NCBI GenBank assembly: GCA_016183145.1
Contig: JACPFE010000206.1
Location: 1 to 50,203, forward strand
Direction: 5' to 3'
From: Deltaproteobacteria bacterium
GTDB lineage: Bacteria; Desulfobacterota; Binatia; UBA9968
DNA length: 50,203 bases
In this document: piece by piece, positions 32,790-43,641 of the stretch
Numbering within the stretch: the stretch's first letter is position 1
Layout: each line of letters begins with the position of its first letter
Translations under genes and position numbers: made by a program
The notes under the pieces: generated by a model
What the model was told of the DNA's origin: nothing
Databases searched by the model: none
Seen by the model: the letters and a program-made list of their open reading frames with translations, nothing else

Positions 32790-33944
32790 TCACGCTTCGG
32801 CTTTTTTCTTTCTCATTCCCCCGGCGACCATCTTGTACTCGAACAGCCGGCATTCGAGCGCGCCGTTGAAAAGCGGCGTGCGCTTGGAGGCGGCGAGGCG
32901 GATGAGCTTGGGCAAGCGCATATCGGCGCTGAGAATGTATGCGCGCCAGCCGGCGAAGTTTTTCTTTAGCGCGTCGCCGAGCTTCGGGTAGAATTCCGCG
33001 AGCTCCCGCTGCTCGCCGAGGCGCACGCCGTAGGGCGGGTTGGTGACGATGATCCCTTCCTTTGCCGGGGCGGAGATTTCCAGGACGTTTGCCTGCTTTA
33101 GGTTCACAGCTCTTTCCAAACCGGCCACCGCAAGATTGGCGCGCGCCGTCTTGAGCGCGTCGGCGGAAAGATCGCTGCCGTAAATCGCCAGCGGCGTCTT
33201 GGGCCTTTGCTGGGCCTGGCTTCGTTGCAACAGTTCGCGCCAACGACGCCCATCGAAATTCTTAAATTTCTCGAAAGCGAAATGGCGTCCCAGGCCGGGC
33301 GCGATATCGAGGGCCATCAACGCCGCTTCCAGTAAAATCGTCCCGCTGCCGCACATGGGGTCGAGCACGGGTATGCCCGGCTCCCAGCCAGCCAAGCGCA
33401 GGATGCCGGCGGCGAGATTTTCTCGTAGCGGCGCCTCGCCGGCGGCGATGCGCTTGCCGCGCTTGAACAGCGGTTCCCCGGTGGTGTCTAGGTAAAGGGT
33501 AAAGTCGCGATCCGTCAGATGGGCCTGGATCGAAATATTGGGTTGGTGGGTATCGACGCTGGGACGGCGACCGGTGAGGCGACGAATCTTATCGCAGACC
33601 GCGTCTTTGATTTTAAGCGTGACAAAATTGAGGCTCGTGAGCGGACTCTTGGTCGCGGTGACATCGACCCGGATGGTGCGCGCCGCATCAAACCAATCGG
33701 TCCACGGCAGCGCGTACGCACGGCGATAAATATCGTCCTCATCGCGATAACGATCGGTTGATACTTGCCAAAGAATCCGGCTCGCAACTCGGCTTGCCAG
33801 ATTGGCCCGGTAGCAGAGTAAGATATCGCCGCCGAAATGAACCCCGCCGCCTACCGCATGGACCTTTTCCGCGCCAAGTAACCGCAATTCCCCCGCCAGG
33901 ATTAACTCCAGGCCGCGCGGGCATGTAGCAAAGAATCGTTCCAT
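32790..33944 (-). CDS. THUMP-domain class I SAM-dependent RNA methyltransferase (RlmL/RlmK-like)
   Basis: 'FFATCPRGLELILAGEL', 'DPMCGSGTILLEAA' and 'TNPPYGVRLG'. Confidence 0.85.
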   Translation of the reverse strand: MERFFATCPRGLELILAGELRLLGAEKVHAVGGGVHFGGDILLCYRANLASRVASRILWQVSTDRYRDEDDIYRRAYALPWTDWFDAARTIRVDVTATKSPLTSLNFVTLKIKDAVCDKIRRLTGRRPSVDTHQPNISIQAHLTDRDFTLYLDTTGEPLFKRGKRIAAGEAPLRENLAAGILRLAGWEPGIPVLDPMCGSGTILLEAALMALDIAPGLGRHFAFEKFKNFDGRRWRELLQRSQAQQRPKTPLAIYGSDLSADALKTARANLAVAGLERAVNLKQANVLEISAPAKEGIIVTNPPYGVRLGEQRELAEFYPKLGDALKKNFAGWRAYILSADMRLPKLIRLAASKRTPLFNGALECRLFEYKMVAGGMRKKKAEA

Positions 33945-34141
33945 GATTCATTCCTATAACAGAGCCGGCGGGTTGGTGATAAGAGAAGGCCTGTAAAAAG
34001 ATCGGCGTGAGCGAACGCTCATGATTTCGCAGGTATTTCAGATTGGTTCTTGGTTTCTTTGGACCGGTCCCCTCCCTTGGCATCCGCCCCCCAATTCGCA
34101 TAGAATCACGGCAATTTAGTTAGCTAAAGAGGCTCGACTCC

Positions 34142-34327
34142 TTGCCGCGAATCTTCGACAATATCGACCAGCAACTTCTCCCCGCCCTTCGCGAGACGAT
34201 AGAGCTGTCTACCCGCTCCGATTTCTGCGTCGGCTATTTTAATCTCCGGGGATGGAAAGAGATCGATTCCTACAGTGAGCCCTGGCCGGGCGGGGACGGG
34301 CATTATTGCCGGCTGTTTGCCGGGTAG
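34142..34327 (+). pseudogene. N-terminal stub (~60 aa) of a PLD-nuclease/SNF2-helicase type protein
   Basis: 'RIFDNIDQQLLPALRETIELSTRSDFCVGYFNLRGWKEIDS...CRL' matches, from memory, the extreme N-terminus of ~1000-aa PLD-domain + SNF2 helicases. It stops before any HKD motif. Confidence 0.5.
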
Positions 34328-34374
34328 CATGGTGACTGTTAGGCTAGAAGAAGCTCACGCCTTTTCCAAAATAT

Positions 34375-34998
34375 ATGGTTAAAGAATATGAGATCTTGGA
34401 AATCAGGCCACCGCCTGGTCTCGAATCATTTTTTGATGGCAAACCTCCGACACTCTGGGGCTTGGGAGAACCGGCCATCTTAGAGCGCAAGCTTCTTGGG
34501 ATTATTTCTGCTCGACAGATTGATTCTGATCTGGCATTAAAAAGCTCACAGCTCTTGAAACAACTGGCGTTCTTGAAAGAGGTGTCCTTTATAAGCGGGT
34601 GGCATTCTCCCCTGGAGGAAGAAGCGCTCAATATCCTTTTAGCCCAAGAAGCCGCGATCGTTTTCTGTGTTCCTAAGAGCCTTAACCGGTTTGTTCCTTG
34701 CGCGGGAGTCAAGGATCGAGTGAGCCAGGGCGAAGCGCTATTGCTGACTCACTGCAGTCCAAGAGCGAAGCGAATCAGCAGAGATGCATCCCTTCGACGC
34801 AACGAATTGGTTGCAGTTTTGGCAGCGGCTCTGCTGGTTCTGTCCGCGCCGCAAGGGAGTGCCTCGTTGAAGCTCGCCAAATCAGCGCTGCGCTATGGAA
34901 AACCTGTATTGACGCCAGAGCACCGTATGAACAAGGAACTTCTTGGCTGCAACGCCTTACCTGCAACATTCGATAACATCCAAGCGGCCCTGCGATAA
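34375..34998 (+). CDS. DprA/Smf-like Rossmann-fold protein, paralog 1
   Basis: 207 aa with 'LLGIISARQ', 'ISGWHSPLEEEAL', 'IVFCVPKSL', 'ASLRRNELVAVLAAALLVLSAPQGSASLKLAK', laid out like the DprA core (G-rich loop / SG..GID / RNR). The stop is 5 nt before the next gene. Confidence 0.65.
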   Translation: MVKEYEILEIRPPPGLESFFDGKPPTLWGLGEPAILERKLLGIISARQIDSDLALKSSQLLKQLAFLKEVSFISGWHSPLEEEALNILLAQEAAIVFCVPKSLNRFVPCAGVKDRVSQGEALLLTHCSPRAKRISRDASLRRNELVAVLAAALLVLSAPQGSASLKLAKSALRYGKPVLTPEHRMNKELLGCNALPATFDNIQAALR

Positions 34999-35003
34999 GA
35001 ACT

Positions 35004-38000
35004 ATGGCAGCAGCAAAGACACTTGAAGACATCATCGCGGAGCAGGCGCCGATAGTTTGCGAGCAGATTGAAGCGGCCGTCGCGTTTGCCGAGTCGGAAG
35101 AAGATCTCCGGATCGAATGCGAGAAGGCTGTCGAGGTTTTTCGCAAAGAAGCGGATCTTCCGGAGCTGAAAGGTCACCATGAGGTAACGATCGGCAAAGG
35201 CAGAGCCGACTCGGTCTATGATTACGTTTTCATTGAATACAAAAAGCCCGGCCGGTTGAAGGAGTCGAACGATGCGCCGGGAAACCGCGAGGTCATCAAG
35301 CAGCTTCAAGAGCGTGCGAAGGCATTCAAGTCCGAGCTGAAACGAGATCCCAAGGAGCTTTTCGGAGTCGGCACCGACGGGAACTATTTCATCACCGGAA
35401 GGTATCGGAACGGCAGGTGGGAAATTAGCCCCGCCAAAACGCGGTCGGTTTATGTTGTAGAGGATTTTCTTCGAAAGTTATCGAGTCTCGGCGTTGCGGG
35501 CAAACCGTTCCTTGCCGACTACTTGGCCGGAGATTTCGGGGCCGAAAGTGAGCGCAAGCTTGCACGTGAGGGAATTGAGAAGCTCTACTGGCGAATCCGC
35601 GAAGTCGAAAAGAAGGCTGACGAATACCCTAAGGCCAAAGTTCTGTTCGAACAGTGGCGAATTCTCTTTGGCGAGGTCTGCGGGTACGACATCAAGACGC
35701 CGAGTAGCAAGATCAAACAGCTTGGGGAATTCTATGGTGTCAAAAAAGACCCGAATCCCGCTGCTTTGCTTTTCGCGGTTCACAGCTACTACGCGCTTTT
35801 CATGAAATTCTTGGCGGCAGAGATTGCCACGGTATCTGGATGCGTTGGTCTCGGCAAAACGATCGAGGCGGGAATGATCTGGCAAGCGTTGGCCCAGCGG
35901 GGGCAGGCAAAAAGGACCCTGATCATTTGTCCAGCCGGTCTAACGGTTCAATGGCAGGAGGAGATGCAGGATAAGTTCGGACAATTCTTTGAAATTTTCC
36001 AGCGTGATTTTCACACGATCAACCCGCGTATCTGGGACCTCAAGGCGTGCGCTATAGCGTCGTTAGATTGTCTAAAGCGCAAGGAGCACAAGGAAAAACT
36101 CTTCGAAAATCGCAAGTGGGATCTAATCATCTTTGACGAGGCCCATCGTTTGAGCGCGAGAGATTACGGAGAAACCAAAACGGAGAAGACTCAGAACTAC
36201 CGGCTCGCCGAGGATCTGAGAGACCACACGGACGCTTTACTCCTGGTAACTGCCACTCCGCACCAGGGCGACGCGACCCATTCACGCTTTCGCCATCTGC
36301 TTGGATTGCTGGATGACGAGATCGACTTCGGCGGGCTGGAGGACGGTCAGATCACGCTTTGGAACTACGCCGTCAGAGAACCGAGTGGCAACGGCTATCG
36401 GCCATACAAAGAGTACATTCTCCGCACGCCGAAGCTAAACGTGACGGATTCTCAAGGGAGAAAAATCTTCCGCGGACGCGACACCCATGCGCTGCGTTTT
36501 CCGATGTTTAAGGACGAGGCGGAGTTTTATAAGGAAGTCAGCCGCTATATCTCTGCCGGTTACCGCATGGTGGAGCATCTCAAGGATCGCAATAAGAAAC
36601 TAGCCATCGGGTTTGTCCTCACGGTTTTCCAGAAACTAGCTTCCAGCTCGACTCATGCAATCAAGGCGGCTCTTTATGGCCGGAAGATGCGCCTGCAAGA
36701 CAAATATCGGCGGCTGCCGGATTCCGTTGATCGCTTGGAGTCTCTTCTAGACGAAGCGGATGAGCGTTTCGAAGGCGAGACGGAAGAGAAGGCGGCCTGG
36801 AGACTCAAAACCGAGGAGGAATTTGTCAGAGACGAGCTTAAGGATCTCGAACGGCTGATCGCGATGCCGGTGAAACAGGATCGGAAGCTCGTTGAGTTAA
36901 AGCAACTGATTAAGCAGGTTTTCAGCGAAAGCGAAAAGGGCGAGAAAGAAAAAATCCTGATCTTTACCGAGTACAGAAAAACTCAGGACCATTTGGTGGA
37001 GGAGTTGGAGAAAGCGTCCGGAAAAGGATCGGTTGTAATCATCAACGGCGACATGAAATTGGACCAGAGGAAAACCAGCGTTCAGCGATTCCGAGATAAT
37101 GACAACGTCCGCTTTATGGTCAGCACCGAGTCGGGAGGCGAGGGGATCAACCTGCAATTCTGCCACGTTCTGGTTAATTACGACCTGCCTTGGAATCCCA
37201 TGAGAATCGAGCAACGGGTGGGTCGGATTTACCGCTTCGGTCAAACCAAGAGGGTTCAGATCTACAACTTTAGAGGCAAGGAAACCGTGGAGGATAAAAT
37301 TTACGGCTTTCTGGAGCAAAAGATTGATATCGCGGCGAAGGCTTTGGCGAAGGTCACTGGAGAAGACCCGGAAGACATCAAGACCACGATGCTCGGTCAA
37401 TTAGAGAGCGAGGTCGATTACAACTCGATCTACAAACGCGCCATCGTCGAGCAGAACATCGAGCAATCCAAAGAAGAGATCGAAGAAGGGGTCAAAAAGG
37501 CGCAGCTCGCCTATGAGATAGCCACGAACAGCTTGTTTAGAGATGTTTCGGGTTATTCCTTCGCTAATTACGAAAGGGAACTGAAAGCAGACATCGATCT
37601 TGAGGCGTTAAGGGAGCTGACGGAGCGGTTTCTGCAACACCATCACCGCCAGGTGCAAAAGAAAGACGGGCTCGTCGAGTTCCTCACGCCGGAAGACCTA
37701 CAAGGACCCGGCATTGACGAGCGATTTACCAAAGTGACCTTTGACCGCAAAGCAGCCATAGAGAACCCGGACTTAACATTTTTTGCGCTTGGCCACCCAT
37801 TTGTGGATAGCATGCTCAAAGCTTGCGGGGACGTGAGCTTTGGCGGTTATTGCACTCGACGATATGTCAAAAACCCGAAAGTAAGCCCGCGTTACGGGTA
37901 CACGTTTAATTTCATTGTGCGACAACGAATTCACAGGGACGACCACGAAGAGTTTTTGTTTGCGCTGCATCCTATATTCGTCGGGGATGATGGTACGATT

Positions 38001-38192
38001 GACGACATCGCAGCGAGGGTGTGTTTGGAATCTTATGGCGATTCGCTCAACAGAGAAATTCAGATCCATCTCGGACCCGACGGCGCCTTTGAAATCGCCA
38101 AAGGTCGCCTTCAGAAGCAAGTTAAAACTATCTGGGATTGGGAAGAGGACGTAACCTTACTGAATCTCGCTTTAGTCGCCGTTGGGTCGTGA
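35004..38192 (+). CDS. PD-(D/E)xK nuclease-like N-module fused to SNF2-family helicase core
   Basis: Residues 1-~278: 'GKGRADSVYDYVFIEYKKPG' (D...ExK) and 'LLFAVHSYYALFMKFLAAEI', which resemble the N-terminal part of type IIG/MmeI-YeeA-like R-M enzymes. From residue 282: 'GLGKTIEAG', 'IICPAGLTVQWQEEM', 'DEAHRLS', 'LLVTATPHQG', 'GGEGINLQ' and 'DLPWNPMRIEQRVGRIYRFGQ'. Confidence 0.85.
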   Translation: MAAAKTLEDIIAEQAPIVCEQIEAAVAFAESEEDLRIECEKAVEVFRKEADLPELKGHHEVTIGKGRADSVYDYVFIEYKKPGRLKESNDAPGNREVIKQLQERAKAFKSELKRDPKELFGVGTDGNYFITGRYRNGRWEISPAKTRSVYVVEDFLRKLSSLGVAGKPFLADYLAGDFGAESERKLAREGIEKLYWRIREVEKKADEYPKAKVLFEQWRILFGEVCGYDIKTPSSKIKQLGEFYGVKKDPNPAALLFAVHSYYALFMKFLAAEIATVSGCVGLGKTIEAGMIWQALAQRGQAKRTLIICPAGLTVQWQEEMQDKFGQFFEIFQRDFHTINPRIWDLKACAIASLDCLKRKEHKEKLFENRKWDLIIFDEAHRLSARDYGETKTEKTQNYRLAEDLRDHTDALLLVTATPHQGDATHSRFRHLLGLLDDEIDFGGLEDGQITLWNYAVREPSGNGYRPYKEYILRTPKLNVTDSQGRKIFRGRDTHALRFPMFKDEAEFYKEVSRYISAGYRMVEHLKDRNKKLAIGFVLTVFQKLASSSTHAIKAALYGRKMRLQDKYRRLPDSVDRLESLLDEADERFEGETEEKAAWRLKTEEEFVRDELKDLERLIAMPVKQDRKLVELKQLIKQVFSESEKGEKEKILIFTEYRKTQDHLVEELEKASGKGSVVIINGDMKLDQRKTSVQRFRDNDNVRFMVSTESGGEGINLQFCHVLVNYDLPWNPMRIEQRVGRIYRFGQTKRVQIYNFRGKETVEDKIYGFLEQKIDIAAKALAKVTGEDPEDIKTTMLGQLESEVDYNSIYKRAIVEQNIEQSKEEIEEGVKKAQLAYEIATNSLFRDVSGYSFANYERELKADIDLEALRELTERFLQHHHRQVQKKDGLVEFLTPEDLQGPGIDERFTKVTFDRKAAIENPDLTFFALGHPFVDSMLKACGDVSFGGYCTRRYVKNPKVSPRYGYTFNFIVRQRIHRDDHEEFLFALHPIFVGDDGTIDDIAARVCLESYGDSLNREIQIHLGPDGAFEIAKGRLQKQVKTIWDWEEDVTLLNLALVAVGS

Positions 38193-38377
38193 GGGGCCGG
38201 TGCCGGGCCGGTGCCTGACTTGCCTTGATTGCCTTACCTAACGATGCGCAAGAATCTACTTGTTCCAGCCTTTCAAATCGTTTCAGCCAAGCAATTTGAG
38301 GGATCCGTCCTATGGCGGACAAGCCGTTCCAAACGTTGAAGAGTTGCGGGAGTGATCCGGCGTCTGGCTCTTATTTC

Positions 38378-38614
38378 CTAACTCTTCTGCCTCAGCTCTA
38401 AATCAAAGCGAAGAACATGCTCGCCGATTCGATGGCCGATGAACCTGATCGCTGCATTTTCACTCGCTTCGTTTAAGAAATTCCGGTTATGACTGGGGTC
38501 TTGCATAGGAATCGATTCCGCTGAAAAAGTCCAATTCCAAGAATCGGGGAAAAATATTTCGCTCACAGAAGCTCTGTAACGCACGATCGGAGCTTGGTTA
38601 CTGATTTTCTTCAT
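38378..38614 (-). CDS. hypothetical protein (78 aa), only minus-strand ORF in the island
   Basis: ORF only. It could be a gene fragment. Confidence 0.25.
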   Translation of the reverse strand: MKKISNQAPIVRYRASVSEIFFPDSWNWTFSAESIPMQDPSHNRNFLNEASENAAIRFIGHRIGEHVLRFDLELRQKS

Positions 38615-38774
38615 CCCGAGTTTTCGTGAATAGGGGGTTTTTCAGCGGAATCACAATCTCATCAATCTGTGGTGAGTTCTCGGAGGAAGCGGATGGACCG
38701 GCTCAAGTCCTGCGCGCCACAAAACTTTGACCTGCGCCGCGGCGCTGGAGAGAGTTTCCGTGTCTCACCATCAC

Positions 38775-38794
38775 GTTTTGAGAATTCTCAAAAC
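38775..38794. repeat. perfect 20-bp palindrome GTTTTGAGAATTCTCAAAAC
   Basis: Read directly. It equals its own reverse complement. Confidence 0.9.
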
Positions 38795-38822
38795 AACAAT
38801 GTGTCGCCCCGATCGATGCTGA

Positions 38823-38854
38823 TTGCGTAGTTGCGCAATTGCGCAACTACGCAA
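38823..38854. repeat. perfect 32-bp palindrome TTGCGTAGTTGCGCAATTGCGCAACTACGCAA
   Basis: Read directly. Built from four TTGCG(T/C)A(G/A)-type octamers, two forward and two inverted. Confidence 0.9.
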
Positions 38855-38966
38855 CTATCCCCGGTCGGCGGAATCCTGGACGATTTTGCACGCCGCGCAA
38901 GTGTTTGATAGTGTCACCCGCAACGAGGACGCCACTAACGAAGAAAGCCGGCAGAAGGAAGGGTAA

Positions 38967-39080
38967 ATCAAAAGGGTGCTGGCGGCGCACTACGGATTCA
39001 CGGACGAGGAGTTGGACTTCATCATCAACTACGACATCAAGTACCGGATGGGACAGGACGTGGAAGCTGAAGACGAATGA
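38967..39080 (+). pseudogene. C-terminal tail remnant of a DNA methyltransferase / type IIG R-M gene
   Basis: Open for only 37 codons: 'IKRVLAAHYGFTDEELDFIINYDIKYRMGQDVEAEDE*'. As I recall, the 'YG(F/L)T(D/E)EE(L/I)' tail is characteristic of these methyltransferases. There is no upstream body. Confidence 0.5.
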
Positions 39081-39179
39081 AATGCGCGGACTCCACGATC
39101 CGTAGGTTGATTTCGGGATTAGCTCGCCATGGGGCGATGTGTTATTGATGGGTCTCCTGAGCGTTAGAGGGAGAGATTC

Positions 39180-40421
39180 GTGTTAAAGAAATTGATCGTT
39201 AAGGGTTTTAAGTCGCTGGAGGATGTCGCTGTCGAATTTCCCCGAATGGCGGTGCTTTTTGGTCCCAATGCCGCGGGGAAAAGTAATCTTCTGGACGCGA
39301 TCCAAGCGCTGTCTCGCATCGGAACAAGCCGGACCCTGTCCGATGCCCTATCGGAACCCATCAGGGGATACCCGATAGAGGCGTTTGCTTTTCCGGCAGG
39401 TGGTCTAGCTGCACTGCTCAGTCAAACGAGGGCAAGCTTCTCTCTTGAAACGGTTTTGGATGTGGGAATAGAACATTTTCTTTACAACTATCGTTTTTCG
39501 GTTGAGATCCAGCCAGGTTCCGGCAGCGTAAGCGTGCAGGACGAATATCTCGTTACGCTGGGCAAGCGAGGCGAACCAAAAGGAAATCCGTCAATAGAAA
39601 GGGTCGAAGATCAGCTCCGAATTCGTCGCAAGAGCAAACCAGCTAATCCCCGGCGGGAAAATGTGGGCCAAAATTATGCGATCCTGTCAGACCCACGATG
39701 GAGTGGAGTTGAATACCGTGCCATCGAACGCTGTCGTAACGAGCTTTCAGGATGGCGTACTTATTACCTCGATCCGCGCGTGGCCATGCGTTCGGCTCGT
39801 CCACCTTCAGATGTGAGGGACATAGGAGTTTTGGGAGAAGATATCGCACCATTCTTATACCGTCTGCGTGCAGAACAGCCGAAGCGTTTTGATGCCGTCA
39901 AACGGACACTCCGTTCCTTGATCCCGAGCGTGGAGGACCTGACAGTTGATCTGGACAAGAAGCGCGGCACACTGGACATTCTGGTTCGGCAGGGCGGAAA
40001 GGAATTCTCATCACGCATAGTCTCTGAAGGGACCCTTCGCGTGCTCGCGCTCTGCGCGCTAACGGTGAACCCTTGGAGCGGTTCACTTCTCGCCTTCGAA
40101 GAGCCAGAGAACGGAGTTCACCCGCGACGTCTTGAGCTAATCGTGCAGCTCCTATCGTCCCTCGCAGTTGACTCTGGCCGCCAAATCGTTGTTACGACTC
40201 ACTCGCCTCTGTTCTGCGACGCGGTTCTGAAACTTGCGAAGCAGCAACCGAAGGAAATCGCTTTGCTCAGAGTTCGCCAGGGCGGTCAAGGCACGGAGAT
40301 AGTGCCGTTTAGCGTTAGTGCCCCCCTCTTTAAGGACCTGGAGATCGCCGAGGCACTAACAACTGGGACAGAAGACGGACTCTTCGAAAGCCTGATCCTT
40401 CGGGGAATGATTGATGAGTAG
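39180..40421 (+). CDS. AAA/ABC-type ATPase (AAA_15/AAA_21-like, OLD/PARIS-AriA-like)
   Basis: 'FGPNAAGKSNLLDAIQAL' Walker A, 'SEGTLRVLAL' signature-like and 'LLAFEEPENGVHP' Walker B. 413 aa. Confidence 0.85.
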   Translation: MLKKLIVKGFKSLEDVAVEFPRMAVLFGPNAAGKSNLLDAIQALSRIGTSRTLSDALSEPIRGYPIEAFAFPAGGLAALLSQTRASFSLETVLDVGIEHFLYNYRFSVEIQPGSGSVSVQDEYLVTLGKRGEPKGNPSIERVEDQLRIRRKSKPANPRRENVGQNYAILSDPRWSGVEYRAIERCRNELSGWRTYYLDPRVAMRSARPPSDVRDIGVLGEDIAPFLYRLRAEQPKRFDAVKRTLRSLIPSVEDLTVDLDKKRGTLDILVRQGGKEFSSRIVSEGTLRVLALCALTVNPWSGSLLAFEEPENGVHPRRLELIVQLLSSLAVDSGRQIVVTTHSPLFCDAVLKLAKQQPKEIALLRVRQGGQGTEIVPFSVSAPLFKDLEIAEALTTGTEDGLFESLILRGMIDE

Positions 40422-41013
40422 CCCGCTGACTGTGGATCTTTTTGCCGAAGATCGCGCTCATGAAGAGTTTCTGCGAGCTATGCTTAACAGAATCTCCGAC
40501 GAACAAGAGAGATACCTCACCGTTCGCGTGCGCTCGGCGAGGGGAGGCCACCCGCGGGTTCTTGAAGAATTGTCGTTGTATCAAAAGAGCGTCTTGAAAG
40601 CTCCGGAGAGTTTGTCGATGCCGGACCTGCTTTTCATTGCTATCGATGCCAACTGTAAGCGTTGGAATAGAGCGAGAAGGGATATTCAAGGAACAATCCA
40701 GTCCCAATTCGCGGCGCGCGCAATTGTGGCTTGTCCGGACCCCCATATCGAACGTTGGTATCTCGCAGACCCAGACTCCTTTGCGCAGGTTGTTGGAGTC
40801 CGCCCCAAGGTTGGAAAGAGAAAATGCGAAAGAGATCGATACAAGGCGATTCTTTCGAAAGCCATTGTCGATGCCGGGCATCCAGCAACGCTAGGAGGAA
40901 TCGAGTTCGCTCGGGAGTTAGTTGCCGCTATGGATCTCTATCGGGCCGGAAAAGCCGAAGGGAGCCTCAAACATTTTCTTGACGAAACCATTGCTCGCGT
41001 TAAGACCCTTTGA
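40411..41013 (+). CDS. Toprim-like / DUF4276-like partner protein
   Basis: Overlaps the ATPase stop by 11 nt. 'VDLFAEDRAHEEFLRAML', 'LLFIAIDAN' and 'PHIERWYLADPDSF' resemble the vEG.tE / D.D / iE.W.laD pattern of DUF4276/OLD-Toprim proteins (from memory). The second Asp of DxD is Asn here. Confidence 0.5.
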   Translation: MMSSPLTVDLFAEDRAHEEFLRAMLNRISDEQERYLTVRVRSARGGHPRVLEELSLYQKSVLKAPESLSMPDLLFIAIDANCKRWNRARRDIQGTIQSQFAARAIVACPDPHIERWYLADPDSFAQVVGVRPKVGKRKCERDRYKAILSKAIVDAGHPATLGGIEFARELVAAMDLYRAGKAEGSLKHFLDETIARVKTL

Positions 41014-41068
41014 AAACCCAAACCAGCAGCAGTCGCGCGGAACGGAAGAACTTCCTGCACAAGAACGA

Positions 41069-41656
41069 ATGGGAATAAGTCCAATTCAGGTCGCGACACT
41101 GACGTCATCGCAAGCTCGTTGGCCTCGCGGGCTTGCTAATAGGCTACGTCGTGATGTTCCTTCTCGACTCTGGGCCATCGGAAGCCCTGAAATTCTCGAT
41201 GAGAAGAAGGTCGGCCTGTTTTGCTCGGTTCGTTGTCCAGGTGATGCCATTCTCGACGCTTACGACAGCGCCCGGAAGCTACGTGATGAAGGCGTGACTG
41301 TCGTTAGTGGCTTTCACTCTCCCGTAGAAAAGGAATGCCTGCGAATTCTGCTGCGAGGGAAACAACCAATCATCATGTGCTTGGCACGGGCGTTAGAAAA
41401 GATTCGCCTGCCGGCTGACTGGCGCAGCGCTGTGGAAGCCGGCCGCTTATTGCTTATTTCACCGTTCGAGAAGCGGCCACGGCGTCCGACAAAGGAGGCC
41501 TCCCAGCGTCGCAACGAAATCGTCGCCGCGCTGTCGGATGAGGTTCTAATCATACACGCCGAATCAGGCGGCAGCGTAGCGCGAATCTCGCAGATGGTTG
41601 AACATTGGAAAGTGCCCAAACTCAATCTACCGAACAACGGAGGTAAGTCCTCTTAA
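41069..41656 (+). CDS. DprA/Smf-like Rossmann-fold protein, paralog 2
   Basis: 195 aa from 'MGISPIQ', with 'VGLFCSVRCPGD', 'VSGFHSPVEKECL', 'IIMCLARAL' and 'ASQRRNEIVAALSDEVLIIHAESGGSVARISQ'. Collinear with paralog 1. Confidence 0.65.
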   Translation: MGISPIQVATLTSSQARWPRGLANRLRRDVPSRLWAIGSPEILDEKKVGLFCSVRCPGDAILDAYDSARKLRDEGVTVVSGFHSPVEKECLRILLRGKQPIIMCLARALEKIRLPADWRSAVEAGRLLLISPFEKRPRRPTKEASQRRNEIVAALSDEVLIIHAESGGSVARISQMVEHWKVPKLNLPNNGGKSS

Positions 41657-41712
41657 GCTGCCGCGTTGCCTGGGGTGAAGGAAACCAAATTCATGCTCAG
41701 CGAAACTAATCA

Positions 41713-41760
41713 TGTGGCGGCCGCGCGATACGGGTTTACGGACGAGGAGTTGGACTTTCC
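41713..41760 (+). pseudogene. second, shorter methyltransferase-tail remnant
   Basis: 'VAAARYGFTDEELDF' then divergence. The DNA tacgggtttacggacgaggagttggacttt matches 38991-39020 at 27 of 30 positions. Confidence 0.4.
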
Positions 41761-42261
41761 TTTGTCGAAGCTCAGGACGGGCACCCATCCTACGGCTACA
41801 AACTCTGTCAAAGTCTCACCTGCCCACTCGGCAACGCGAGTCATAGATTCACGCTCGGGGCGTCGATCGAGAGTCGGCCAAGCTCGCTGCGATTTTAATC
41901 CGCTCTCTTACTTTCACCGACGCGACGTGTTAAGGTTAACACCATGATTAAAGAAGAAAAGGCAACAAGATCCGAAATTTTTCACCATCTCTCGCAGGTT
42001 TACGACGTTTCTCGCATCAACCCGGTACCACGACTGGGCCCGCAGCGGTAGTTTCTCTCTAAGTCTCCCAACAACTATCTCGCCTTTTGGCCAATCGCCG
42101 CAGTGAAGCGGCGTGAATCCTAGGGTGCTTGTTAGTTTGAAAAAGGGCCGCACCTTAAGGGCTTTGCCCGAGGGTTTAAGCGATTTTCGCTTCCAGCCCG
42201 ACGGTATGGCCCGTTTTTTTTCGACCCCATAGCCGGTGGTCACGCAGAAAATCCACCAGGA

Positions 42262-43641
42262 TTGGGGTGGGTACTATGTGTAAGAGTCATAAAAATAGAA
42301 AGCAGGTCCGTGTCTAACCGTAAAAAAGGCTTCAATTTACTCATCCGCGCTCTGGGTTCAAGAAATTACCGCCTATATTTCTTTGGACAGGCGGTGTCCT
42401 TGATCGGCACCTGGATGCAACAGATAGCCATGAGATGGCTGGTGTATCGCTTGACCAAGTCCGAGTTATTGTTGGGCGTAGTGGGATTTGCCAGCGATAT
42501 CCCGGTATTTTTTCTGGTGCCTTTTGCCGGCGTGCTCGCCGATAAATTCAAACGCCAGCGCATCTTGGCGATAACGCAAGGGCTGGCGGCGCTGCAAGCA
42601 TTTATCCTGGCGGTTTTGGTCATCACGGACCAAGCGGCGGTTTGGCATGTCGTGGTGCTCGGCGCGTTATTGGGCGTCATCAACGCCTTCGACATACCCG
42701 CCCGCCAAGCCTTCTTGGTGGAGGTGGTCGAGAACAAGGAGGACTTAGGCAATGCCATCGCGCTGAACTCGTTCATCTTCAATGGCGCATTGCTGATCGG
42801 CCCCGTCATGGCGGGTGTTCTGATCGCCTTTTTCGGCGAAGGACTCTGCTTGATTCTGAACGGTGTAAGCTACCTTGCCCTTATAGGCGCGCTCCTTCTT
42901 ATGAAAATTCCAGAGAGAAAAACGACTTCAGGAAATATTCAATTAGGGCGCGGGATCCTCGAAGGCGCAACCTACGCGTTTCGCTCAGTGCCCATCAGAT
43001 CGATTCTACTGCTGGTCGCCCTGGTGAGTTTTATGGGGGTTTCCTACATGCTGCTCATGCCGGTATTCGCCGAAGATGTTTTGCACGGCGGTCCACAAGC
43101 ATTTGGCTACCTCATGTCGGCAACCGGCATTGGTGCTCTGGCTGGGGCCGTTTTCCTGGCCTCGCGAAGGAATATTTTAGGGTTAGGAAAAGTGATTGTT
43201 ATCTCGGGTATAATGTACGGCATTGGACTTTTTGCCTTGTCGTTGTCGCATCATCTAATCTTGTCTTTGGTCATTGCCGTGGCGGTTGGTTTTTCCTTGA
43301 TGATGCAGATGGCTTCCAGCAACACGATCCTGCAGACAATCGTCGATGACCGGAAACGCGGTCGCGTGATCAGCCTCTTTGTGATGGCGCGCCGCGGCGT
43401 CGAATCGTTCGGCAGTTTAGTGGCCGGCGTAGTGGCACATCGGTTCGGCACGCCGGACACGTTGATGATCGGTGGCATCGTTTGCTTGCTCGCCTCGGTA
43501 GCCTTCGCCACGAAATTATCGATGATACGAGAAACCAGCCGTGCCTTTTATAAGGATATGAAGGATGCGAAATCAGACGCTAAACCCGTTCCGGTAGTTA
43601 GAGTAATTAATGAGCTGCCGGTGGGCGCGCCAAATCCATAG
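42262..43641 (+). CDS. MFS transporter (MFS_3/EntS-like)
   Basis: About 12 predicted TM segments, 'NYRLYFFGQAVSLIGTWMQ' and 'GVLADKFKRQRIL'. The start is uncertain (the GTG at 42310 is also plausible). Confidence 0.85.
   Translation: MGWVLCVRVIKIESRSVSNRKKGFNLLIRALGSRNYRLYFFGQAVSLIGTWMQQIAMRWLVYRLTKSELLLGVVGFASDIPVFFLVPFAGVLADKFKRQRILAITQGLAALQAFILAVLVITDQAAVWHVVVLGALLGVINAFDIPARQAFLVEVVENKEDLGNAIALNSFIFNGALLIGPVMAGVLIAFFGEGLCLILNGVSYLALIGALLLMKIPERKTTSGNIQLGRGILEGATYAFRSVPIRSILLLVALVSFMGVSYMLLMPVFAEDVLHGGPQAFGYLMSATGIGALAGAVFLASRRNILGLGKVIVISGIMYGIGLFALSLSHHLILSLVIAVAVGFSLMMQMASSNTILQTIVDDRKRGRVISLFVMARRGVESFGSLVAGVVAHRFGTPDTLMIGGIVCLLASVAFATKLSMIRETSRAFYKDMKDAKSDAKPVPVVRVINELPVGAPNP

What the first reader, a model, noticed from the sequence alone, without database searches (positions are those of the whole stretch)
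34375..41656. Two divergent paralogs of a short DprA-like protein, one per module
The products of 34375-34998 and 41069-41656 align collinearly. Shared segments are LW(G/A)(L/I)G.P.IL, SG(W/F)HSP(L/V)E(E/K)E.L.ILL, I(V/I)(F/M)C, G.LLL, and AS.RRNE(L/I)VA(V/A)L....L(V/I)..A..GS. They keep the DprA Rossmann-core layout. They are only about 200 aa and lack the SAM and winged-helix extensions of competence DprA. DprA-fold (SLOG-type) domains bind ssDNA or nucleotides, so a sensor or loader role for the adjacent helicase and ATPase-Toprim effectors is conceivable. From memory, a DprA-like + phosphoribosyltransferase pair has been reported as anti-phage. That should be verified, and it is a different partner set in any case.
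Basis: partly seen in the sequence, partly recalled or inferred. Interest (0 to 1): 0.7.

Follow-up and report, generated by a model that had tools for sequence, protein, structure and literature searches.

The report
DprA-like accessory genes of decayed restriction systems
The two short DprA-like genes are real, ancient relatives, and each is the surviving accessory gene of a different helicase-plus-methyltransferase restriction-like system that has been largely deleted in this genome; the family-wide link to the methyltransferase did not turn up in my literature searches.

Summary
The two ORFs are 31% identical (E=2e-24). Both pass Pfam's DprA threshold, and both fold as a single DprA Rossmann domain without SAM or winged-helix domains.

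Across about 165 related loci, the conserved partner is an MmeI-like type IIG methyltransferase with an SNF2 helicase, not the ATPase-Toprim pair.
- B-type order: HKD-SNF2 helicase, then methyltransferase, then 0-3 variable embedded genes, then the DprA-like gene.
- A-type order: DprA-like gene, then nuclease-methyltransferase, then SNF2 helicase.
- Fusions of a methyltransferase-like domain lacking its NPPY catalytic motif to a DprA-like domain also exist.

The window holds wrecks of both systems. Only a 61-codon helicase stub and a 37-codon methyltransferase stub remain of the B system. An A cassette sits between them, and its methyltransferase domain is deleted. The ATPase-DUF4276 pair is an interchangeable embedded cassette.

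Most likely the DprA-like protein is a DNA-binding self-protection or antitoxin-like accessory acting with the methyltransferase. Precedents are PsyrA/RqlI, ShosA and H. pylori DprA. This mechanism is inferred, not shown. The gene is frequent but not obligate (about two thirds of helicase-methyltransferase pairs), and solitary copies stay under purifying selection.

The parts
34077..34106 (+). Promoter-like site (TTGGCA-18-TAGAAT) ahead of the helicase stub. It is probably the retained promoter of the B-type operon.
   Evidence: the only sigma-70-like match in 33900-42300 (weak evidence). DNA from about 34056 onward aligns with the region upstream of the intact helicase gene of L004 (76% identity).
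34142..34327 (+). 5' stub (61 codons, then a stop) of the B-type HKD/PLD-SNF2 helicase gene.
   Evidence: tblastn gives 89% identity to aa 1-61 of the 1128-aa helicase of L004. Similar stubs occur in L010, L036, L042, L046, L047, L056 and L061.
34375..34998 (+). DprA-like paralogue A (207 aa, pI 9.1), the first gene of the A-type cassette.
   Evidence: In L001, L003, L010 and L013 the orthologue lies 5-7 nt upstream of an MmeI-like nuclease-methyltransferase gene.
35004..38192 (+). 1062-aa deletion-fusion ORF. Residues 1-277 are the N-terminal PD-ExK nuclease domain of the type IIG enzyme (D69-X8-E78-X-K80). Residues 281-1062 are the SNF2 helicase from its Walker A onward. The methyltransferase and target-recognition part and the first 129 helicase residues are missing.
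   Evidence: 91% identity to L003 methyltransferase aa 1-277 and 90% to L003 helicase aa 130-908; no NPPY or DPxCGxG motifs remain; sibling MAGs carry 152 bp more at 35830|35831 and have two ORFs there (341 aa and 772 aa).
38193..38966 (.). Non-coding spacer with rearranged repeats and a palindrome (arms 38809-38838 and 38839-38868; core GTAGTTGCGCAATTGCGCAACTAC).
   Evidence: Segments recur in shuffled order in L055, just before its methyltransferase stub.
38967..39080 (+). 3' stub (last 37 codons plus stop) of the B-type MmeI-like methyltransferase gene.
   Evidence: 89% identity to aa 1074-1110 of the L004 methyltransferase. Equivalent stubs occur in at least 15 other loci.
39180..40421 (+). 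ABC-type (AAA_21) ATPase, HEC-01A-like: an embedded cassette gene.
   Evidence: It is only 26% identical to the ATPase in the same position in L004, although the flanking stub (89%) and DprA-B (70%) are close.
40411..41013 (+). DUF4276 (Toprim-like) protein, HEC-01B-like: partner of the ATPase.
   Evidence: (PF14103, 36.4 bits against 30.2).
41069..41656 (+). DprA-like paralogue B (195 aa, pI 10.0), the terminal gene of the B-type system.
   Evidence: Orthologues end intact helicase-methyltransferase operons in more than 9 phyla.
41714..41757 (+). Second, truncated copy of the methyltransferase 3'-end sequence (...YGFTDEELDF). It is a direct repeat of 38976-39019.
   Evidence: (44 nt, 84% identity). 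The two copies bracket the ATPase-DUF4276-DprA-B block.

Best explanation
Both genes encode single-domain, basic, DprA-fold proteins of one subfamily, with the signature SG[FW]HSP[VL]E and R-x8-RN. Members of this subfamily are accessory components of helicase-coupled, MmeI-like (type IIG/IIL) restriction-modification-like systems. In the B-type system the gene order is HKD-nuclease/SNF2 helicase, nuclease-less MmeI-like methyltransferase, a hypervariable slot for embedded defence cassettes, then the DprA-like gene. In the A-type system the DprA-like gene comes first, followed by a nuclease-bearing MmeI-like methyltransferase and an SNF2 helicase. The window is a gutted B-type locus. Only the promoter region, 61 helicase codons, 37 methyltransferase codons, the embedded ATPase-DUF4276 cassette and DprA-B remain. 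An A-type cassette replaced the core of that locus, and its methyltransferase domain was later deleted. All of this is shown. The mechanism is inferred. The DprA-like protein binds DNA (ssDNA preferentially) and works with the methyltransferase as a self-protection, antitoxin-like factor. It could do this by stimulating or targeting methylation and shielding DNA, or by channelling self-inflicted damage to RecA repair. That would keep a nuclease-helicase tolerable when it is paired with a methyltransferase that, if it behaves like the characterised MmeI enzymes, marks only one strand (not tested for these homologues).
For: - Fold and family.
- Closest defence-related profile: PsyrA at E=4e-25 (B) and 3e-14 (A). 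PsyrA/RqlI and ShosA are DprA-like antitoxins. PsyrA's toxin is a RecQ-type helicase, and psyrA or shosA deletions could not be transformed (PMC11232893 table).
- ShosA needs ssDNA binding, dimerisation and RecA binding, and does not bind its toxin (PMC11961720, PMC12961424).
- Linkage, seeded on the DprA-like gene: of 48 non-redundant loci with at least 8 kb upstream, 20 have a full methyltransferase and/or helicase and 11 have stubs or partial genes.
- Linkage, seeded on the helicase: in metagenomes, 17 of 25 loci with a complete methyltransferase and enough downstream DNA carry a DprA-like gene on the same strand. Two IMG/VR contigs carry the compact triad.
- Adjacency is to the methyltransferase gene in both gene orders.
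- Rosetta-stone evidence: 8 of the top 150 cluster representatives are 690-770 aa. All four that were tested join a methyltransferase-like region of the same type IIG family (E down to 3.5e-47) to a C-terminal DprA-like domain. NPPY was absent in the three sequences read.
- H. pylori DprA, the closest solved relative by sequence (E=2e-9), inhibits restriction enzymes and stimulates methyltransferases by direct contact (PMC3597690).
- MmeI-family enzymes methylate one strand only, and nuclease-less homologues come with a helicase and a third gene (PMC2731913).
- The basic residue at the position that aligns with the GTRR stretch of H. pylori DprA is kept (that this stretch is DprA's ssDNA-contact motif rests on my memory of the 4LJR paper), R139, R148 and N149 are 98-100% conserved, and the pI is 9-10.
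- Orphan copies are harmless and are retained, as expected for an antitoxin-like part: dN/dS is 0.26-0.35 for solitary pairs and 0.22-0.34 in intact systems.
Against: - No experiment or complex prediction ties the protein to the methyltransferase, RecA or DNA.
- About a third of helicase-methyltransferase pairs lack the gene. Cultured examples (Synechocystis pSYSX, Pelobacter pPRO1) have other small third genes. It is therefore dispensable for the core activity.
- Purifying selection on solitary copies next to metabolic genes (L012, L014, L015) shows a function that does not need a cis partner.
- The C-terminal region that carries the RecA and dimer contacts in S. pneumoniae DprA could not be aligned at residue level.
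- In the fusion proteins the signature His is Gln, so the signature pocket may not be essential.
- The conserved H/E/C/R residues lie at the ends of strands and starts of helices in the AF2 secondary-structure assignment, where a Rossmann-type binding crevice would be; that placement is an inference from topology, not read from coordinates, and it would equally fit a small-ligand site.
Confidence: 0.5

Rival explanations
1. The DprA-like protein is an infection sensor or loader. It recognises foreign ssDNA or replication intermediates and licenses the neighbouring helicase-nuclease, or the ATPase-Toprim pair, to attack.
For: - DprA-fold proteins bind ssDNA.
- Escape mutants of T7 against ShosTA map to the phage SSB and primase-helicase genes (PMC11961720).
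- The gene is co-oriented with a helicase-nuclease in both system types.
Against: - The ATPase-Toprim link is not conserved. It is seen in about 4 of roughly 45 informative loci, and the ATPase in the window is only 26% identical to the one in L004.
- The gene abuts and fuses with the methyltransferase, not the helicase.
- A third of helicase-methyltransferase pairs manage without it.
- Orphans persist after the effectors are lost.
Confidence: 0.2
2. It is a free-standing recombination or repair mediator, a short housekeeping-type DprA that loads RecA. It merely lies at integration hot spots, so the link to defence genes is positional.
For: - Solitary, selectively maintained copies exist (L002, L012, L014-L017, L022, L063, L080).
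- RadA is adjacent in L016, L017, L042, L046 and L052, and a UvrA-like 1,900-aa gene lies next to several Binatia copies.
- DprA motifs are retained.
Against: - The gene travels with the helicase-methyltransferase pair across more than 9 phyla with unrelated flanks, and onto viral contigs.
- Some genomes hold two or more copies (window, L057, L049+L084, L026+L055).
- The signature was found in only 245 of 185,579 species genomes.
- Scores are far below the TIGR00732 equivalog cut-off (59.5 and 47.6 against 191 bits).
- Fusions to a methyltransferase-like domain exist.
Confidence: 0.15
3. It is a SLOG-type small-molecule binder or enzyme, LOG-like or a sensor of a nucleotide signal, rather than a DNA-binding protein.
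For: - The conserved residues G81, H83, P85 and E87 (part of the scan pattern), the B-clade C52/C56/C90/C104, and R139, R148 and N149 lie at the ends of strands and starts of helices in the AF2 secondary-structure assignment, which is where a Rossmann-type ligand crevice would be (topological inference, no coordinates inspected).
- More distant fold matches are LOG, Moco-carrier and ThsA SLOG domains.
- A phage 'DprA/Smf' anti-Avs protein is predicted to bind AMP (bioRxiv 10.1101/2025.06.06.658234).
Against: - TM-scores to DprA and ShosA (0.72-0.80) far exceed those to LOG, Moco-carrier or ThsA domains (0.4-0.6).
- The residue aligning with H. pylori DprA's GTRR stretch and the RN(R/E)[LI]V motif are kept.
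- The LOG-type PGGxGTxxE motif was not seen where I read the family alignments by eye; no pattern search was run.
- No signal-generating enzyme recurs in the loci.
Confidence: 0.1

Closest known systems
PsyrA / RqlI, the antitoxin of PsyrTA (RqlHI)
   Same: It has a DprA-type Rossmann domain and is the best PADLOC match of both paralogues (E=4e-25 and 3e-14). It is paired with a helicase whose activity is toxic, and it has been found embedded in a BREX locus right after the PglX methyltransferase (PMC11232893 table).
   Different: The PADLOC PsyrA model is 398 positions long, and only positions 97-266 are matched. Its partner is a RecQ-family helicase, not an SNF2 helicase. It has no methyltransferase partner. 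PsyrTA is a two-gene toxin-antitoxin module.
ShosA, the antitoxin of ShosTA (Rst_DprA-PPRT)
   Same: It has the DprA fold and is the top structural match of paralogue B (8zva, TM 0.80). It is a type IV antitoxin that acts through ssDNA and RecA binding rather than by binding its toxin (PMC11961720, PMC12961424).
   Different: ShosA has an N-terminal SAM domain and an unstable C-terminal tail. Its partner is a phosphoribosyltransferase. The profile match is weak (E=4e-7 and 1e-3).
Competence DprA, especially H. pylori DprA
   Same: It has the same Rossmann-fold domain and is the closest solved sequence (E=2e-9). It has no SAM domain. It binds ss and dsDNA, inhibits restriction enzymes and stimulates methyltransferases by contact (PMC3597690).
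   Different: H. pylori DprA has a C-terminal winged-helix (DML1) domain (its domain layout is from my memory) and is a competence gene. The window proteins score far below the DprA equivalog cut-off.
Helicase-coupled MmeI-like systems (YeeA/DnmA-YeeB-YeeC type; Morgan et al. 2009)
   Same: An MmeI-family methyltransferase that lacks the PD-ExK motif is flanked by a helicase and a conserved third gene, and the three are predicted to work together with one-strand methylation (PMC2731913).
   Different: There the helicase is of the DEAD type and the third gene is GIY-YIG-like. Here the helicase is an HKD-SNF2 fusion and the third gene is DprA-like. The A-type keeps the nuclease on the methyltransferase.
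Hma, BREX-related systems and class 1 DISARM
   Same: They combine an SNF2 helicase with a methyltransferase, and defence cassettes (including ABC ATPase + Toprim, HEC-01) are embedded between the core genes. The window helicase hits BrxHI, HmaA and DrmD profiles.
   Different: Hma needs a DUF1156 methyltransferase and a DUF499 ATPase. DISARM needs DrmA and DrmB. BREX needs BrxC and PglZ. None of these is present. None of those papers mentions a DprA or SLOG component.

Membership tests
DprA domain family (Pfam PF02481) | Profile match above the curated gathering score | tested here: met
   59.9 and 60.2 bits against a cut-off of 29.6.
DprA domain family (Pfam PF02481) | DprA-type extended Rossmann fold | tested here: met
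   AF2 pLDDT is about 90. Foldseek TM-scores are 0.72-0.80 to 8zva, 3uqz, 3maj and 4ljk, and 0.6 or below to other SLOG folds.
Competence DprA (TIGR00732 equivalog) | Score above the equivalog cut-off (191 bits) | tested here: not met
   59.5 and 47.6 bits.
Competence DprA (TIGR00732 equivalog) | Accessory SAM and/or DML1 winged-helix domain | tested here: not met
   The proteins are 195-207 aa and fold as a single alpha/beta domain.
Competence DprA (TIGR00732 equivalog) | ssDNA binding, dimerisation and RecA loading | not testable with these tools
   Only the basic residue at the position aligning with H. pylori DprA's GTRR stretch and the basic pI could be checked.
PsyrTA / RqlHI | PsyrA-like DprA protein | tested here: inconclusive
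   The match is domain-level only (model positions 97-266 of 398), at E=4e-25 and 3e-14.
PsyrTA / RqlHI | Adjacent RecQ-family helicase toxin (PsyrT) | tested here: not met
   No RecQ-type gene lies in the locus. The neighbouring helicase is SNF2.
ShosTA | Adjacent phosphoribosyltransferase toxin (ShosT) | tested here: not met
   No PRTase is found among the ORFs from 32.8 to 48 kb. The ShosA profile match is weak.
MmeI-like type IIL/IIG restriction-modification | Single polypeptide with a D-X9-EXK nuclease motif, gamma-class N6-adenine methyltransferase motifs and a target-recognition domain | tested here: not met
   This refers to the window copy. The intact relative L003 has D69-X8-EXK, DPACGSG and NPPW, and matches REase_MTase_IIG at E=2.6e-234. 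The window keeps only residues 1-277, so the methyltransferase motifs are gone.
Hma | HmaA SNF2 helicase + DUF1156 methyltransferase (HmaB) + DUF499 ATPase (HmaC) | tested here: not met
   Only the SNF2 core matches HmaA. Neither DUF1156 nor DUF499 appears in the window or in related loci (PMC11232893).
DISARM class 1 | DrmA, DrmB and DrmC core plus DrmD and DrmMI | tested here: not met
   The DrmD profile scores 318.6 bits against a cut-off of 610. No DrmA or DrmB (DUF1998) is seen in any locus.
HEC-01 (ABC ATPase + Toprim embedded candidate) | AAA_21-type ABC ATPase followed by a DUF4276 Toprim-like protein | tested here: met
   HEC-01A at E=1.4e-56, HEC-01B at E=5.9e-5, and PF14103 above its cut-off. 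This concerns genes 39180-41013, not the DprA-like genes.

The most novel reading that the evidence does not exclude
This DprA-like subfamily is the dedicated self-protection (antitoxin-like) subunit of a widespread, uncharacterised three-gene restriction system: an HKD-SNF2 helicase, an MmeI-like methyltransferase (one-strand methylation assumed by analogy with MmeI) and the DprA-like protein. The methyltransferase-like::DprA-like fusion proteins and PsyrTA/RqlHI would then be reduced derivatives of that system, linking a 'toxin-antitoxin' defence module to restriction-modification by descent. A bolder version: as a RecA mediator, the protein also drives the turnover of embedded defence cassettes, which are bracketed by copies of the methyltransferase 3' end.
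Probability: 0.25. Interest if true: 0.75.

Novelty: new variant of a known kind. Interest (0 to 1): 0.55.

Why it matters
DprA-like proteins are known in defence only as antitoxins of two-gene modules (ShosTA, PsyrTA). This analysis finds a distinct, recognisable subfamily that recurs as an accessory gene of helicase-coupled MmeI-like restriction systems in many uncultured phyla. It is sometimes fused to a methyltransferase-like domain that has lost its NPPY motif.

If the inferred role holds, it would explain how systems that (by analogy with MmeI, untested here) methylate only one strand avoid self-damage. It would also give a biological context to the old biochemical finding that H. pylori DprA stimulates methyltransferases and blocks restriction. 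Finally, it would offer an evolutionary bridge between restriction-modification and toxin-antitoxin defence.

The loci also document how defence hot spots decay and exchange cassettes while small accessory genes survive. For this particular window the practical message is more sober: both systems are wrecks, and the apparent 'modules' are not functional units.

Tried and rejected
- Hma, DISARM or BREX membership was rejected. Only the generic SNF2 core matches, and the defining partners are absent.
- DprA-B as a partner of the ATPase-Toprim pair was rejected by neighbour tabulation.
- A housekeeping DprA was judged unlikely, given rarity, multiple copies per genome and scores below the cut-off.
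- RadA and the UvrA-like neighbours as functional partners: I read these as hot-spot flanks. Orientation and distance vary, and the island sits between them and the DprA-like gene in L001.
- A recent local duplication of A and B was rejected. Identity between clades is 22-30%, and each clade has its own system.
- PLSDB plasmids hold helicase-methyltransferase pairs but no DprA-like gene of this subfamily, so no cultured, plasmid-borne triad was found.
- The exact 1062-aa fusion protein is not on record elsewhere. Sibling MAGs explain why.
- Residue-level mapping of the S. pneumoniae RecA and dimer contacts was not possible.
- Literature searches for DprA together with type IIG, MmeI or SNF2 returned nothing relevant.

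Full report
**1. The observation**

BLASTP between them gives 31% identity over 157 aa with one gap, E=2e-24.

Both match Pfam PF02481 (DNA_processg_A) at about 60 bits, against a gathering score of 29.6. Both fall far below NCBI's DprA equivalog cut-off, at 59.5 and 47.6 bits against 191.

AF2 models are confident. B has pLDDT 89.8 and pTM 0.87. A has pLDDT 91.4 and pTM 0.90. Each model is a single alpha/beta domain.

Foldseek against the PDB puts ShosA (8zva) and the DprA proteins of S. pneumoniae, R. palustris and H. pylori on top, with TM-scores of 0.72-0.80. Other SLOG folds (Moco carrier, LOG, ThsA) reach only 0.4-0.6. A profile of the family finds H. pylori DprA (E=2e-9), ShosA (2.5e-5) and S. 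pneumoniae DprA (2e-3) among solved sequences.

So the observation, the DprA fold and the absence of SAM and winged-helix extensions are all confirmed. The two proteins belong to well-separated clades: 62-91% identity within a clade and 22-30% between them. They are ancient paralogues, not a local duplication. Source names place the contig in an uncultured 'Deltaproteobacteria' / Candidatus Binatia MAG.

**2. What lies next to them in the window**

Downstream of A is a 1062-aa ORF, 35004-38192.
- Residues 1-277 are 91% identical to the first 277 residues of a roughly 1,100-aa type IIG nuclease-methyltransferase in a related Binatia locus, L003.
- Residues 281-1059 are 90% identical to residues 130-908 of the SNF2 helicase that follows that enzyme in L003.
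- The retained N-terminal part carries an MmeI-like D69-X8-E78-X-K80 nuclease motif.
- The methyltransferase motifs present in L003 (DPACGSG, NPPW) are gone.

Near-identical sibling MAGs (99.9% identity) show an earlier state. They carry 152 bp more at 35830|35831 and have two ORFs there. One is 341 aa (methyltransferase residues 1-331). The other is 772 aa and starts after the helicase Walker A. One sibling has a different 83-bp deletion. The window's ORF is therefore a secondary, frame-restoring deletion inside an already decayed cassette.

Upstream of A, 34142-34327 encodes 61 codons that are 89% identical to the start of an 1128-aa HKD/PLD-SNF2 helicase in L004. Upstream of the ATPase gene, 38967-39080 encodes the last 37 codons (89% identity) of the 1110-aa MmeI-like methyltransferase that follows that helicase.

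A truncated second copy of the methyltransferase 3' end lies just after B. It forms a 44-nt direct repeat, 38976-39019 and 41714-41757, at 84% identity.

The window is thus a B-type locus whose helicase and methyltransferase were replaced by an A-type cassette, and that cassette then lost its own methyltransferase domain. The ATPase (AAA_21, HEC-01A-like), the DUF4276 Toprim-like gene and B remain intact.

**3. What the family is linked to elsewhere**

*DprA-seeded genome scan.* A scan of one genome per species (185,579 species) with the signature [SG]G[FW]HSP[VL]E[KE] gave 245 confirmed relatives. I analysed 79 loci from many phyla, using ORF calling, clustering and profile labelling.

In the B clade the recurrent architecture is an HKD-SNF2 helicase of about 1,130 aa, then an MmeI-like methyltransferase of about 1,100 aa, then 0-3 variable genes, then the DprA-like gene, all on one strand.
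- PADLOC labels the helicase 'HKD+Snf2' (E=1e-49) and the methyltransferase REase_MTase_IIG (E=0).
- The methyltransferase has NPPY and DPTCGSG but no PD-ExK motif.
- Intact examples come from Binatia, Acidobacteriota, Lentisphaerota, Chloroflexota, Thermodesulfobacteriota, Omnitrophota, Verrucomicrobiota, Planctomycetota and Syntrophorhabdus.

Of 48 non-redundant loci with at least 8 kb upstream, 20 have a full methyltransferase and/or helicase, 11 have stubs or partial genes, and 17 have neither.

The variable slot is empty in some loci. In others it holds AAA_21 + DUF4276, SLFN_AlbA_2 + HATPase_c_4, a DUF1016/YhcG nuclease, or a PIN pair.

The window's ATPase is only 26% identical to the ATPase in the same slot in L004, whereas the flanking stub (89%) and B (70%) are close. 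The ATPase-Toprim pair is therefore an exchangeable embedded cassette, not B's conserved partner.

In the A clade (Binatia only), the DprA-like gene sits 5-7 nt upstream of the nuclease-bearing methyltransferase, followed by the SNF2 helicase (L001, L003, L010, L013). L011 has an independent truncation.

Of 25 loci with a complete methyltransferase and enough downstream DNA, 17 carry a DprA-like gene downstream and 8 do not.

Two IMG/VR contigs carry the compact triad. Cultured plasmids have the helicase-methyltransferase pair with other small third genes, and PLSDB holds no member of this DprA-like subfamily. Examples are Synechocystis 6803 pSYSX and Pelobacter pPRO1.

The DprA-like gene is therefore a frequent accessory, present in about two thirds of cases. 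It is not an obligate core gene.

*Fusion proteins.* An exhaustive profile search found 476 cluster representatives at E<=1e-30.
- Eight of the best 150 are 690-770 aa.
- The four that were tested combine an N-terminal region of the same type IIG methyltransferase family (E=3.5e-47 to 9e-11) with a C-terminal DprA-like domain.
- In the three sequences I read, NPPY is replaced (for example FDVVLGDSARPG) and the DprA signature reads GGFQSP[LV]E.
- The N-terminus of these proteins resembles that of the B-type methyltransferase.

This is Rosetta-stone evidence for a functional link to the methyltransferase. It agrees with the gene always abutting the methyltransferase gene in both gene orders.

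*Selection.* dN/dS is 0.26-0.35 for pairs of solitary copies, 0.22-0.34 within intact systems, and 0.08-0.21 for stub-locus pairs, where dS is saturated. Orphan copies, like the two in the window, are still maintained by selection.

**4. How it most likely works**

Shown:
- the fold;
- the family signature;
- a basic pI (9.1 and 10.0);
- retention of the basic residue at the position that aligns with the GTRR stretch of H. pylori DprA (that this is DprA's ssDNA-contact motif is from my memory of the 4LJR paper), and near-invariant R139, R148 and N149;
- the genomic and fusion link to MmeI-like methyltransferases and SNF2 helicase-nucleases.

From the literature:
- PsyrA/RqlI and ShosA are DprA-like antitoxins, and deleting them is not tolerated (bioRxiv 10.1101/2022.05.11.491447).
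- PsyrT is a RecQ-type helicase (PMC11232893).
- ShosA neutralises its toxin without binding it, through ssDNA binding, dimerisation and RecA binding (PMC11961720, PMC12961424).
- H. pylori DprA protects DNA from restriction enzymes and stimulates methyltransferases by direct interaction (PMC3597690).
- MmeI-family enzymes methylate one strand only, and nuclease-less homologues come with a helicase and a third gene (PMC2731913).

Inferred: the DprA-like protein is a DNA-binding self-protection factor. It helps the methyltransferase, or RecA repair, to keep the host safe from its own helicase-nuclease. This is antitoxin-like behaviour inside a restriction-like system. I put this at about 0.5.

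Rivals:
- an autonomous recombination mediator that merely sits at hot spots (about 0.15);
- a SLOG-type small-ligand binder (about 0.1). The conserved H, E, C and R residues lie at the ends of strands and starts of helices in the AF2 secondary-structure assignment, where a Rossmann-type crevice would be (a topological inference; no coordinates were inspected), so this cannot be dismissed.

**5. Comparison with known systems**

The proteins are members of the DprA domain family. They are not equivalogs of competence DprA. They are also not PsyrTA (no RecQ partner, and only a domain-level match) and not ShosTA (no PRTase).

The surrounding systems are not Hma (no DUF1156 or DUF499), not DISARM (no DrmA or DrmB) and not BREX. 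They belong to the loosely described class of helicase-coupled MmeI-like systems noted by Morgan et al. in 2009.

I found no paper in the searchable library that links a DprA-like gene to type IIG or MmeI methyltransferases or to SNF2 helicases. The Hma-embedding paper does not mention DprA.

**6. Verdict**

The finding is real, and it is more interesting at the family level than in this window. It is a new variant of a known kind: a DprA-like accessory of restriction-like systems, related to known DprA-like antitoxins.

In this window, both copies are survivors in a nested, decayed defence hot spot. Interest 0.55.

Noticed in passing
window 35830|35831; L178 7457-7608, L180 6830-6981, L181 1618-1769; L179: Sibling MAGs that are 99.9% identical carry an extra 152 bp exactly at the fusion junction, which gives two ORFs of 341 aa and 772 aa. 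Another sibling lacks 83 bp (window 35642-35724). The remnant is heterogeneous in the population, or the region is prone to assembly errors.
   Followed up: partly
window 38976-39019 and 41714-41757; also L044, L046, L055, L057: Copies of the last 40-60 codons of the methyltransferase gene recur, sometimes two per locus, and they bracket embedded cassettes. This looks like a footprint of cassette exchange by recombination at the methyltransferase 3' end.
   Followed up: partly
window 38809-38868: A palindrome with 30-nt arms (80% complementary) and a perfect core, GTAGTTGCGCAATTGCGCAACTAC. It lies about 100 nt upstream of the methyltransferase stub and could be an operator or a recombination site.
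   Followed up: no
window 38193-38966; L055 94-573, 4573-4654, 5691-5789: The non-coding spacer shares 85-99% identical segments, in shuffled order, with a locus from another MAG. There they also precede a methyltransferase stub, and parts are repeated. They may be small mobile or repeat elements.
   Followed up: no
L010 10630-11616; L011 10592-11413: Two other A-type loci have independent truncations of the methyltransferase gene at about residue 329 and residue 256. The sibling MAGs break at residue 331. The boundary after the N-terminal nuclease domain seems to be a recurrent break or swap point. In L001 the enzyme is 93% identical up to residue 474 and 44% beyond.
   Followed up: partly
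L016, L017, L042, L046, L052 (RadA); L008, L021, L062, L068, L074, L084 (a roughly 1,900-aa UvrA-like protein): In Binatia and 'delta' MAGs, the DprA-like genes and their islands often lie next to radA or next to a giant duplicated UvrA-like ABC protein. I read these as hot-spot flanks, but a repair link was not excluded.
   Followed up: partly
B-clade alignment, window B residues C52, C56, C90, C104: Four cysteines are conserved in 76-95% of the aligned sequences; three of them (C52, C56, C90) are specific to the B clade, while C104 is also kept in the A clade (C98). They lie at the ends of strands or starts of helices in the AF2 assignment, near the H83/E87 signature in sequence. A metal site is possible.
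   Followed up: no
L088-L096 (IMG/VR contigs of 54-92 kb, mostly from one sample): Phage-like contigs carry solitary DprA-like genes that are 26-32% identical to the window proteins, with no helicase or methyltransferase nearby. They could be phage counter-defence or recombination genes.
   Followed up: no
L097 3975-5966 and 8136-10415: The methyltransferase-like::DprA-like fusion P0254 lies two genes away from a RecQ-family helicase on the opposite strand. This is reminiscent of PsyrT-PsyrA.
   Followed up: no
L186 (Synechocystis sp. PCC 6803 plasmid pSYSX, record 43696-56236): A cultured example of the helicase-methyltransferase pair has a VapC-type pair embedded between the two genes and a DUF2513 gene in the third position. 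Next to it are a ThiF/E2/multiubiquitin cluster and an ImmA/IrrE-HTH pair.
   Followed up: no
L003 and L004 (LplA ... dCTP deaminase interval): Two Binatia genomes hold an A-type and a B-type system, respectively, between the same flanking housekeeping genes. This is a defence hot spot with whole-system replacement.
   Followed up: partly
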